The position numbers are program-made. 64,000 bases of DNA, from assembly GCA_943788985.1 (NCBI GenBank), contig CALSSJ010000023.1:1-64000 (forward strand), written 5' to 3'. This stretch comes from an uncultured Lentisphaerales bacterium. Its GTDB lineage: Bacteria > Verrucomicrobiota > Lentisphaeria > JABSQK01 > UBA12247. Position 1 is the stretch's first letter; each line of letters starts with the position of its first letter. Below are positions 12,501 to 15,500 of this stretch, piece after piece.

Positions 12501-15500
12501 CGCGGCTAGCCTGGTGCTGGCTGAGAGCAAAGTTGAGGGCCATCTCAAGTTCGAATATCTCGCTTTTCAGTTCAGTCTCTTCGTATCTGCAGACGATCCG
12601 GCAGTGGTACTGCTGCCGCAGCCCAAGTGCGGGAATCGTCACTGCGCGGCGGGTGCCGTCAGCACCGCTCTCGAGCCTGCCGACCACCGCCGTGACCTGC
12701 GCATTCCGCACATGCTCTGCGGCGAACTGCCAATGATGCACTGGAGGATTCAAAGAAACCGGCACACTGCCAGGTACCTCCTGCGGGGCACAATGACAGC
12801 CGGGAGCTGTGAGGATCAGCAAAGCCATCAAGACAGCGAACGACAAAAATCGATTCACAACGGAACTCACGCGACCTCCGACTCCTATGGCTTGCAGCGC
12901 GTTCTCGCGCAGCGATTCAGCACAGCGCGGGCGCGCGACGAACAAGATAGCTACGGCGCTTCGCCCCGCAAGCTCGGCGCTCGAACCCTGAGGTTACGAC
13001 ACTTATGCTTACAAGCACTCACGTCGCGAGAGTGAGCCACTCTGAGCCGAATTCCAAGCTTGCTGGTGCGGCAAAGCTTTGGCCATTGCATGAGCCGATT
13101 GACGGAGCATGACGAGATCGGCACTTTGGCACTTTGTTACCGGGGCGAGCCCGGGCGATTTCGCTGCGCTCAACTGGAGCTGTTTCGCAGGAAATGTTTG
13201 CCATTCTCCTCGTTCCCTCACGCTAAGCGGGCTATCTCAACTCTCGCAGGCTCGCGCACCTCCGCACCGATGGGACACCACCGCGGCATCCGAATCCACT
13301 CGTCTAATTGATTCAGTGCGCTCCGCGCGGGTCCTTAGAACGCGGCCTGGACGCCGATCACGAAGATGTCTGATTCAGCATCACGAACACTATGAGTAAC
13401 TCCGTCACCCAGATTGCCGCCGCTGATCCAGTTAAGCGGGACATAGCCTGCGGTGTGAATGTATTCTGCGAATAGTTTTACACTGGGCTGCACACGTGTC
13501 GCAATCCCAAGTACAAGCTGGTCCTGACGCTCCCACGGGGCACCAGCCGGACCTGCGACAAAGCGACTGAATTCTACAGACAGATCAACGTCGCGCTCTA
13601 ACATTGTAGCCGTGTACTTGCCACCAAGATTCCAGCTGGAGACTTCATGAGCAGCAAACTCTGGTATGGTCGGGTTGAAGGTCCCCGGCCAATCATTCAC
13701 CGTCTGCGCATATTCAGCATGGATCAAAACACGGTCCAGACGAAGCTGGCCGTAGACATCCCACGCCGGGTTCTCCTCTCCGCACGCTTCAAAATGAGTC
13801 ACCGGAAAATCCTGGCAGTACGCGCTACCGCGCTGATAGGACGCTCCGAACAGCAGGCTGTCGTCTTCACCAAAATCAATCGTATAGTTCCCGTCCAGCA
13901 CGTAATTATTCAACTGACTCGGGACATTGGTACCATCGACAGGAGTATTATTGGATCGAAACTGAGCGCCCCCCTGAACTGCCATGGCCGAAAGGCTCAG
14001 GCCATCACGGATGTAGCCGAGGTTTGCCCCATATGCCAGACCGCCAAAAGCGTGCCATACCCCCGAGGCTGTGAAAGGACTGACCGTATCGGTGAGGCCG
14101 AACGGCGTCGCCATTTTGCCGACACTCAGATATGCTGGGAATTCGTCGAGATCCCCGAACATCACGTACCCGCGGCGTAGCTGCAGCTGGTTTCGTTCAA
14201 GAGCCGTAATGCTACCTTTCCCGAAGCTCTGCTCAGGATCGTACAGTACCTCGGCATAGCCAGTGATCCAAGAGCCCAAGTTGGCTGTCAACCCCAGCTG
14301 CGCTGAGTGGATTACCGCCTCCGAAGCACTCTCGGCGACCTGATTGGAGGCTGTCGGATGCCGCATCAGATAGCCGAACTTTCCCTCTGTGTTGCTGCTC
14401 TGGATGTTGGCGATCGCTGTGACCGCCCCGCTTGCCACGACGGTATCAGGCGCAAGATTTCCTGCCTGTTTCTGCTCGAGAAGGTACTGCTGCTTCCGGT
14501 TGATCCGGGTCGTGGGGTCGAGCATATCGTAGCCGTACTCCGGAGCGATGCGCAACACCCCATCCATTGCTATCGGCCTTGCCGCGACCGAACTCGCCGC
14601 GCCTGACTGCGACGTATCCTGCGAGCTTTCCAACCGCGACACCTTTGCGCGGAGCTCGCGGTTCTCCTCTTCCAGCCGTTCCAGCCGGGCGGCAAGTTCC
14701 TCCAGCGTCACTGCGAATGCGGGAGCTGTCGTGAAAAACAAAAGAAGGCAGCTGACGATGAGCCAGCGTAGGCGAGGAGTGACGGCCATGATGGAATCTC
14801 CCGGGGTCTTAAAGAGCAGATAAGCTACACGAACGCATGCTGTCCGCAATATCGTTCCCCCCAAAAAAAGGATGACTTGGATACGCAAGCGATCCGCTCA
14901 GTTCTGTTCGGGTCGCACGACCGCCCCCATAGCAACTCCAGATACGAGCGTCTGCTAGCGATGTGCTCAGTTCAGCTCGAGCCGCAAGGCCTCGGTCGCG
15001 AAGACCCAGTATCCTTTGCCCTGCTTGAGCTCGGTCGGCAGATCGAAGTTTCCATTCTCGTAGCTCTGGACCACGCTGATCCGAGGATCGGCCGGCAAGC
15101 GGTCGGTGTTTACTGGCCCAAGCAAGTTCCAGCCTTGCACCAGCTCAACGGCTGGGGCGTCAGCAGGCTCACCGAGATACTCTAGTGTCAGCGGCTCACC
15201 CGTGTGCAACCAGACGCCCTCCCCCACGCGGATCTCATGTGCCGCTGCATATTCACCACTGCGCCACGCCCAGACAGCACCATCAGGAATACGCGCCAGA
15301 AGCGCATCCACAGGCTCGAATGGCTGGGTCGGGAACGAAATCAGGTTCCAGCCCTTGGCCAACTCCAGCGAGAATGTCTGAGGCCCGACCCGCAGGCGCC
15401 GCATCCCGGTGGTTCCGTTGCCATCCGAGAACAGAAAGAAGTCCTCACCACCAAAAGTATCTTCCGGCTCGTAGCGCGGCGGGCCATCGCCTTCATCCAC

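What a model noticed while it worked through the whole genome (the two positions that open the first line are those of the whole stretch)
14967..15410. Unannotated tandem C-terminal domain (GWNL..G.GYW) caps some 26 large secreted proteins: a candidate sorting signal
26 proteins of this genome (adhesins, proteases, giants up to 17,000 aa; many with N-terminal signal-like sequences) carry a ~145-aa domain of two GWNL...G.GYW repeats, at the extreme C-terminus in 23. It has no Pfam, NCBIfam or PDB match, occurs in many copies or not at all across Lentisphaeria, and tracks one type II secretion operon (g01096-g01100, C11:164453-171644): a candidate portable C-terminal secretion or anchoring tag.
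Evidence so far: Iterated HMM on own proteome; profile A6 hits 26 proteins, 23 within 20 aa of the end. No Pfam family in 19 of 19 members, no NCBIfam below E 0.05, no PDB sequence. AF2 model pLDDT 92.6, all-beta; best structural match Z 4.0 among 48,161 chains. Class: 30 of 61 genomes carry it (1-51 copies, mostly 4 or more), 31 none; best locus of each of 29 other carriers ends within 12 aa of the stop. 24,467 representatives in the 50% library, 123 of the top 150 C-terminal. T2SS gene g01096 found in 29 of 30 carriers and 8 of 31 non-carriers; family f3 of this order lacks both. Carrier genes lie in or near secretin operons in G000 (g00327), G045 and G057.
(Added by a program. Inside this text positions count along the whole contig: contig position 1 is position 1 of the stretch shown here. 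"Call 12" and the like, gene names such as g00115 and contig names such as C1 are that model's own, and its searches are not shown. The text may have been shortened before it was handed on; [...] marks where a part breaks off. The agent that wrote the report below was given it as the finding of a first reader that could run no searches.)

Follow-up and report, generated by a model that had tools for sequence, protein, structure and literature searches.

The report
Unnamed surface-protein tail, bacteria and archaea
An unnamed two-repeat protein domain caps dozens of unrelated secreted proteins in many bacteria and archaea and most likely tethers them to the cell envelope without a membrane anchor; it is not a tag for type II secretion.

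Summary
The domain is real: 27 ORFs of this genome carry it near-whole, 24 within 20 aa of the end. It has no Pfam, NCBIfam, PDB or fold match. The type II secretion (T2SS) link fails. The marker gene g01096 is fast-evolving; the operon's secretin occurs in 38 of 55 non-carriers, and the same gene order is intact in 10 of 10 non-carrier loci checked. The domain is also not confined to Lentisphaeria. Three archaeal genomes without a secretin give 99, 45 and 34 matches, mostly C-terminal on signal-peptide proteins with no membrane helix. In 35 of 120 listed homologues it lies upstream of a T9SS C-terminal signal. In the Methanomicrobiales S-layer family, 109 of 120 homologues end in a membrane helix (108 PGF-like), 7 end in this domain and none has both. 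Best reading (0.5): a portable non-covalent envelope anchor of undescribed fold; binding is inferred, not shown. A second unnamed domain ('MID') sits beside it and occurs alone as a secreted protein only in carrier genomes: the candidate partner.

The parts
14967..15410 (-). Tandem GWNL domain, last 147 aa plus stop
15162..15380 (-). Repeat 1 (L.L..GWNLISFP ... G.GVW), approx. aa 11-83 of the domain
   Evidence: alignment A1, secondary structure, half-versus-half test
14970..15161 (-). Repeat 2 (V.L..GWNLLGP ... GKGYW), approx. aa 84-147
14967..17660 (-). 3' part of the carrier gene (897-aa ORF): CARDB at aa 265-299, BsuPI-like Ig at aa 582-640, GWNL domain at the end; no membrane helix
17584..18552 (-). 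5' part of the same gene, with a signal-peptide-like start near 18552; out of frame with the 3' part near 17584-17600
   Evidence: database protein P0011 (1262 aa) matches 18726-17584 at 98.4% and 17600-14970 at 99.3% in different frames; three-frame translation
296..1309 (-). Second carrier in the window: signal peptide, Ig-like part, Asp-rich repeats, GWNL domain at 299-760; no catalytic domain found

Best explanation
A portable, folded (not membrane-spanning) module that holds Sec-exported proteins at the cell envelope by non-covalent binding, in the role that dockerin, SLH or cell-wall-binding domains play elsewhere. SHOWN: tandem two-repeat domain; many copies per genome; appended to unrelated extracellular cargo (Ig/cadherin adhesins, S8, trypsin, M14 and C10 peptidases, beta-helices, S-layer proteins); carriers typically have a signal peptide and no C-terminal helix; present in archaea, Chloroflexota, FCB, PVC and Desulfobacterota; it takes the place of the PGF-CTERM anchor in an S-layer family; it lies inside the part retained when a T9SS signal follows it. 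INFERRED: the cargo leaves by whatever route the host has (Sec alone in archaea, T9SS in FCB, probably T2SS in Lentisphaeria), and the domain then binds an envelope ligand (glycan, S-layer lattice or a protein partner). In bacteria the partner or chaperone may be the 'MID' domain.
For: Anchor swap: P0261 (Methanogenium) scores 1232 bits against S-layer family NF041431 (cut-off 600) and ends in the domain. Of 120 listed homologues (167 found) 109 end in a membrane helix, 108 of them with a PGF-like motif, 7 end in the GWNL domain without a helix, 0 have both and 4 neither. Homology to the same organism's PGF-CTERM paralogue P0356 stops at residues 1214/761, where one begins its spacer plus PGF-CTERM and the other the GWNL domain. 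In this family that C-terminal position faces the membrane (PMC11641113, passages). Only 1 of 265 carriers has a helix-like C-terminus; 143 of 235 with a start Met have a hydrophobic N-terminus, 3 a lipobox-like motif (crude hydropathy test). Archaea: 99, 45, 34, 9 and 19 matches per genome, C-terminal in 19 of 22 and 28 of 34 ORF hits (the loci overlap in part); no secretin in the 5 genomes tested, control positive in 6 of 14; PGF-CTERM gives 1 borderline, 0 and 0 matches in the three richest archaea. T9SS cargo: 35 of 120 homologues carry PF18962, all 35 with the domain 122-260 aa before the end; the T9SS CTD is cleaved off on export (PMC5445135, passages). Cargo diversity.
Against: No binding, localisation or proteomic data. 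No ligand common to archaea and bacteria was identified; MID was not found in G101, G103 or G104. Two C-terminal modules exclude each other almost trivially, and 4 of the 7 swapped S-layer proteins (the query and three relatives) are close kin. S-layer paralogues could be held by the lattice itself and use the domain to bind something else. Position is not fixed: N-terminal or internal in 13 of 14 Verrucomicrobiota loci outside the class and in 34 of the top 150 representatives more than 60 aa from the end. Several secreted archaeal neighbours have neither this domain nor a helix. G105 uses both PGF-CTERM (18 matches) and this domain.
Confidence: 0.5

Rival explanations
1. Export or sorting tag read by a so-far unknown receptor, independent of secretins: the folded domain is recognised in the (pseudo)periplasm, in bacteria by the MID protein, and handed to a route across the outer layer.
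For: Terminal, multi-copy, all-or-none by family. MID sits next to it in 99 of 101 sequences that have both; a secreted MID-only gene is in 27 of 46 carriers and no MID match in 55 non-carriers. Methanomassiliicoccus may have a second membrane (PMC4243693, passages).
Against: Redundant upstream of a T9SS signal (35 of 120); N-terminal or internal copies; MID not found in 13 of 46 carriers nor in three archaea; present in Methanomicrobiales S-layer proteins that need only Sec (inference).
Confidence: 0.18
2. Substrate-binding module (CBM-like) that sticks secreted enzymes and adhesins to an external surface such as particles, polysaccharide or partner cells, not to the producer's own envelope.
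For: Beta-rich fold with conserved Trp/Tyr; occurs at either end; appended to hydrolases; at the far end of giant adhesins. One structural match in a marine phage protein, E 9.3e-4.
Against: Cargo is far more mixed than one substrate would explain; it replaces a membrane-facing anchor in S-layer proteins; some carriers have no catalytic domain and little besides it.
Confidence: 0.17
3. Self-association or folding cap: the domain oligomerises or nucleates folding of long Ig-repeat chains, building a protein coat or bundles.
For: Internal two-fold repeat; tandem arrays of carrier genes in archaea; occurrence on S-layer-type proteins.
Against: Found on small single-domain enzymes as well as giants; nothing here tests oligomerisation.
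Confidence: 0.08
4. One reading: a T2SS-specific secretion signal for operon g01096-g01100.
For: 45 of 46 carriers have the operon and family f3 lacks both; one carrier lies between secretin and PilM-like gene on C5; carriers within 10 kb of 4 of 8 secretin loci viewed, two of which I chose because they were near.
Against: Operon secretin in 38 of 55 non-carriers and operon intact in 10 of 10 non-carrier loci; the C5-type secretin has strong matches in all three f3 non-carriers; 99, 45 and 34 matches in archaea without secretin; upstream of T9SS signals.
Confidence: 0.07

Closest known systems
PGF-CTERM / archaeosortase and other tripartite C-terminal sorting signals (LPXTG, PEP-CTERM, GlyGly-CTERM, MYXO-CTERM)
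   Same: C-terminal, many per genome, on otherwise unrelated signal-peptide proteins; exchanged for PGF-CTERM within one S-layer family. These are attributes 1, 2, 3, 6, 7 and 8 of bioRxiv 2023.06.07.544157 section 5.
   Different: About 145-175 aa folded beta domain; no membrane helix or Arg cluster; no processing enzyme identified; also occurs internally or N-terminally.
T9SS C-terminal domain (PF18962, TIGR04183)
   Same: Folded beta-rich terminal module on diverse Sec cargo, many per genome.
   Different: No profile match; twice as long and tandem; found outside FCB and in archaea; in FCB it precedes the real CTD in the same chain.
Dockerin-cohesin; SLH and other non-covalent wall-binding domains
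   Same: Portable duplicated module at the end of secreted enzymes and adhesins with no membrane anchor; a candidate partner domain (MID) exists; dockerin/cohesin also occur in bacteria and archaea (PMC9012536, passages).
   Different: No sequence match to these families; model is beta-rich, whereas dockerin and SLH are helical (recalled); partner occurs in cis or as one small protein, and no multi-MID scaffoldin was seen.
T2SS substrates
   Same: Sec signal peptide, beta-rich folded cargo, T2SS present in nearly all carrier Lentisphaeria.
   Different: The T2SS signal is poorly defined, not a shared domain (PMC6617341, passages); this domain does not co-occur specifically with T2SS.

Membership tests
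T2SS secretion signal | Carriers have Sec/Tat signal peptides | tested here: met
   143 of 235 carriers starting with Met have a hydrophobic N-terminus; in G000 7 of 27 ORFs pass the threshold, many others are frameshifted pieces
T2SS secretion signal | Host genome encodes a secretin | tested here: not met
   Met in G000 (3 secretins) but 0 of 5 archaeal and Dehalococcoidia carrier genomes have PF00263; control positive in 6 of 14; completeness of these 5 not given
T2SS secretion signal | Specific co-occurrence with operon g01096-g01100 | tested here: not met
   Secretin in 38 of 55 non-carriers; operon order in 10 of 10 non-carrier loci
T2SS secretion signal | Export depends on T2SS and on the domain | not testable with these tools
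   Needs mutants
T9SS CTD | Match to PF18962/TIGR04183 | tested here: not met
   0 of 22 and 0 of 71 domain sequences
T9SS CTD | Last domain of the chain in T9SS hosts | tested here: not met
   C-terminal in 2 of 27 FCB ORF hits; 35 of 35 PF18962 proteins have it 122-260 aa upstream of the end
T9SS CTD | Seven-stranded Ig-like fold | tested here: inconclusive
   No chain above Z 3.8; a missing match does not exclude the fold
Tripartite sorting signals (PGF-/PEP-/GlyGly-CTERM) | Near C-terminus, many per genome, invariant motif, unrelated cargo | tested here: met
Tripartite sorting signals (PGF-/PEP-/GlyGly-CTERM) | Homologues carry a different C-terminal signal instead | tested here: met
   109 helix versus 7 GWNL versus 0 both among 120 S-layer homologues
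Tripartite sorting signals (PGF-/PEP-/GlyGly-CTERM) | Membrane helix followed by basic cluster | tested here: not met
   1 of 265 carriers with a helix-like C-terminus; 0 of 27 in G000; no Arg cluster by inspection
Tripartite sorting signals (PGF-/PEP-/GlyGly-CTERM) | Cognate processing protease | not tested
   No genome-wide profiling was possible
Dockerin / SLH-type non-covalent anchors | Match to their Pfam models | tested here: not met
   No such family among hits for 22 and 71 members
Dockerin / SLH-type non-covalent anchors | Same fold | tested here: inconclusive
   no clear structural match of any kind
Dockerin / SLH-type non-covalent anchors | Binds a partner protein or wall polymer of the host | not testable with these tools

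The most novel reading that the evidence does not exclude
A sortase-free surface display system shared by bacteria and archaea: the GWNL domain is the address, the MID domain (in cis, or as one conserved secreted protein per genome) is its bacterial receptor or chaperone, and in Thermoplasmatota, where dozens of secreted proteins per genome carry it, it marks an undescribed route to or across an outer envelope layer.
Probability: 0.2. Interest if true: 0.85.

Novelty: new variant of a known kind. Interest (0 to 1): 0.66.

Why it matters
A family of about 25,000 clusters at 50% identity with no name, no library model and no clear fold match sits on dozens of secreted proteins per genome in poorly studied lineages (Thermoplasmatota, ANME-1 relatives, Methanomicrobiales, Dehalococcoidia, Ignavibacteria, Desulfobacterota, Lentisphaeria). 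How such archaea keep enzymes and adhesins at the surface without membrane helices or archaeosortase signals is an open question (own knowledge); this gives a concrete candidate, a natural swap with PGF-CTERM to test it on, and a marker for predicting surface proteomes. It would not be the long-sought T2SS signal.

Tried and rejected
T2SS co-occurrence: reproduced with g01096, then lost with the secretin and with profiles. Second secretin (C5) as correlate: matches at E<=1e-20 in 87 of 101 genomes, strong in f3 non-carriers. Library matches: DUF1737 in 9 of 71 members, best E 7.5e-4, taken as a short L..GW.L.G motif resemblance; choice-of-anchor R in 1 of 71 at E 0.0017; PDB sequence best E 0.27-0.3. 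Fold searches: best Z 3.8 for the domain, 3.4 for MID, no Foldseek hit at E<=0.001 in PDB; these blanks do not show a new fold. ESM Atlas: only unnamed clusters. Phage and plasmid collections: no match with one query each; IMG/VR: 1 locus. T9SS CTD in G000: none, but the control rang nowhere, so uninformative. Cohesin/dockerin as partner: one sub-cut-off cohesin in G000, dockerin in G027 and G101 only. Donor-strand idea: pairwise E 0.52, not supported. Tree of 92 domains: only the quick method finished, backbone unresolved, not used for direction of transfer. My first MID adjacency count was dropped because the iterated profile could run into the GWNL domain; one search replaces it. Complex prediction of GWNL with MID: tool not available, no verdict. 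Literature: 10 searches showed no description in the listings; most subscription papers are not searched and no supplements were read, so a description in a supplement (e.g. ANME or Thermoplasmatota domain tables) is not excluded.

Full report
OBSERVATION. window 14967-15410 (-) is the end of an 897-aa ORF. Its last 147 aa, searched iteratively against 38,917 six-frame ORFs of the genome, converged in 3 rounds. Profile A1 (22 members) hits 32 ORFs, 27 over at least 85 positions, 24 of these within 20 aa of the stop; reversed ORFs give best E 0.18. The 27 include near-duplicates and fragments. The three exceptions have tails of about 70, 164 and 712 aa. The halves are repeats of each other (44 of 71 at E<1e-3). 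The window gene is frameshifted near 17584-17600: a 1262-aa database protein covers both parts at 98-99%. Several other giant carriers also look split, which hides many N-termini.

NO KNOWN FAMILY. 22 own members and 71 members from many lineages gave no convincing Pfam, NCBIfam or PDB match. The AF2 model is confident (pLDDT 93.6, pTM 0.85, beta-rich with one short helix) and matches nothing clearly (best Z 3.8; no Foldseek hit at E<=0.001; one viral model at E 9.3e-4). The family is large: 25,326 representatives at 50% identity.

THE T2SS LINK DOES NOT HOLD. In 101 genomes of the class the domain is in 46, with the same 46 found by a second, broader profile; the split follows families. But the secretin of that operon is in 45 of 46 and 38 of 55. 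I fetched 10 secretin loci from non-carriers of families f7, f9, f11 and f16: profiles of the five genes found the same order in all 10 (8 with five genes; one cut by the contig start; one with an unscored ORF at the third position). So the correlation mostly measured distance from G000. In favour of some link: family f3 lacks both domain and this operon; one G000 carrier lies between a secretin and a PilM-like gene on C5; carriers lie within 10 kb of secretin operons in G041, G027 and G038 but not at the loci viewed in G002 and G028, nor at G000 C11 and C2. G041 and G027 were chosen because of the proximity, so the unbiased count is 2 of 6. This fits carriers being T2SS cargo in this class (inference), not the domain being the signal.

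THE DOMAIN SPANS BACTERIA AND ARCHAEA. A scan of 185,579 genomes with one strict motif kept 80 of 132 confirmed stretches: 17 archaeal, 12 Chloroflexota, 19 FCB, 15 PVC, 17 other by record title. The A1 and A4 profiles align at 99.9% probability (they share one member). Whole-genome searches gave 99 matches in a Thermoplasmata chromosome (only 150 of 243 candidates scored), 45, 34 and 9 in records titled Methanobacteriota, Methanomassiliicoccales and Methanophagaceae, and 2 in a Dehalococcoidia chromosome; 19 in a Methanoregulaceae, 24 in a Desulfatiglandales, 8 in Ignavibacterium album, 2 in a Nanohalarchaeota and 1 in another Dehalococcoidia genome. Matches are not exact copy numbers. None of the first five has a secretin. 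The domain is C-terminal in 19 of 22 archaeal, 10 of 12 Chloroflexota, 10 of 15 PVC, 9 of 18 other and only 2 of 27 FCB ORF hits. In FCB it is followed by a T9SS signal: 35 of 120 listed homologues (392 found) carry PF18962, always 122-260 aa downstream. That signal is cleaved on export (PMC5445135, passages), so the GWNL domain would stay on the mature protein. Elsewhere in the phylum 35 genomes outside the class match, mostly 1-2 times; in 13 of 14 loci examined the domain is N-terminal or internal.

ANATOMY OF CARRIERS. Cargo is extracellular and mixed: Big_9/cadherin, SdrD, PKD, CARDB, FG-GAP, beta-helix, BNR, and S8, trypsin, M14, C10 and C13 peptidases. Of 265 database carriers 1 has a helix-like C-terminus; 143 of 235 with a start Met have a hydrophobic N-terminus and 3 a lipobox-like motif (simple hydropathy rule). 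Archaeal carriers often stand in tandem arrays.

THE ANCHOR SWAP. P0261 from Methanogenium is a member of S-layer glycoprotein family NF041431 (1232 bits, cut-off 600) and ends in the domain. Of its 120 listed homologues (167 found), 109 end in a membrane helix, 108 with a PGF-like motif; 7 end in the GWNL domain with no helix; none has both; 4 have neither. Against the PGF-CTERM paralogue of the same organism, homology ends at 1214/761, where the two tails diverge. In M. hungatei that tail runs from the last Ig domain to the membrane (PMC11641113, passages). Exchange for another terminal signal is one of the listed marks of a sorting or anchoring module (bioRxiv 2023.06.07.544157, section 5). 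Limits: four of the seven are close kin, terminal modules exclude each other easily, and a lattice-held paralogue could use the domain for something else.

A CANDIDATE PARTNER. A second unnamed domain of about 120-140 aa, here called MID (G...AT.GFD...D...PP.P...RDIR...W), has no Pfam match and a beta-sandwich-like model (pLDDT 75, best Z 3.4). In my pooled, redundant sequence set 104 sequences have MID and 101 of them also have the GWNL domain: MID before it in 79, after it in 5, on both sides in 15 (the pool was gathered through GWNL hits, so it is biased). The independent test is the class search: MID matches 33 of 101 genomes, all carriers, and in 27 it is a single small protein (G000 C21:81645-82220) with a signal-peptide-like start in those read. 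It was not found in 13 carriers, nor in three archaea. Kin are not independent, and a search miss by divergence is possible here as it was for g01096.

MECHANISM. Most likely (0.5) the domain is a non-covalent envelope anchor: cargo is exported by the host's own route and then held by binding of the domain to an envelope ligand. Distribution, position, lack of helices and the swap are shown; binding and ligand are inferred. Rivals: export tag with an unknown receptor (0.18; some Methanomassiliicoccales may have two membranes, PMC4243693, passages), substrate-binding module (0.17), self-association or folding cap (0.08), T2SS signal (0.07; that signal is described as poorly defined, PMC6617341, passages).

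COMPARISON AND NOVELTY. It works like dockerin/SLH-type anchors and shares the genomic signature of C-terminal sorting signals, but is a member of neither: no profile match, no membrane helix, not last in T9SS hosts. That dockerin and SLH are helical is recalled, not tested. Ten paper searches (listings and abstract starts only) showed no description; I read passages of six papers and no supplements, so prior mention cannot be excluded.

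Noticed in passing
G000 C21:81645-82220 (L189:5645-6220, -); L202-L220: Single-copy, conserved, signal-peptide protein made only of the unnamed MID domain; found only in genomes that carry the GWNL domain. In families f2 and f4 it often lies near rpmH/rnpA or trigger factor (gene names by my reading).
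   Followed up: partly
window 17584-17600; also C23:140902-144957, C23:79449-79558, C33:26105-26280, C10:288000-328000: The window gene and many giant repeat genes are split by frameshifts; a 1262-aa database protein spans the window break. Probably assembly errors.
   Followed up: partly
window 1-730 and G000 C27:1-730: Reverse-complement copies at 99.6% identity at two contig ends; the contigs may adjoin or the carrier locus is duplicated.
   Followed up: no
window 3-419 and 1242-1604 (-): The small carrier 296-1309 is flanked by a PqqD-like ORF (NCBIfam E 0.003) and an ORF that looks like an S24/S26 peptidase (my reading, untested).
   Followed up: no
L073 (G057:C15); L022:9663-11024 (G000 C32); window 296-1309: Carriers sit beside FGE-sulfatase genes with an N-terminal Ig-like domain, and two carriers begin with an S..FTVD motif; a donor-strand adaptor role was considered, pairwise test E 0.52.
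   Followed up: partly
window 13335-14789 (-): Outer-membrane porin-like gene right after the carrier; LbtU family 84.9 bits, below the cut-off of 90.
   Followed up: no
G000 C5:43183-58078: Second secretin operon (secretin, carrier with trypsin and Ig repeats, PilM-like, ATPase); the same operon in G028 and G038 has no carrier inside.
   Followed up: partly
L235, L237, L239-L245: Other Verrucomicrobiota have a conserved cassette of secreted proteins that start with a divergent GWN domain; no NCBIfam match in those scanned.
   Followed up: no
L185:3881-6412: A giant-virus contig (IMG/VR) encodes a protein with the domain near its N-terminus.
   Followed up: no
L196:2243-5308, 9874-12702, 18677-19999 (G101): Archaeal secreted proteins with a shared different C-terminus that may be a more divergent form of the domain, missed by my profiles.
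   Followed up: no
G103 (record titled Methanobacteriota, L122): Its domains group with those of the Methanomassiliicoccales genome G104 in the quick tree; the record title may not reflect its lineage.
   Followed up: no
G000 C19:10072-36499; C22:126937-136954: Large extracellular proteins without the domain: two on C19 share another Ig-like C-terminus; the C22 cluster has a MID-start protein, a dockerin-like end (my reading) and a sub-cut-off cohesin.
   Followed up: no
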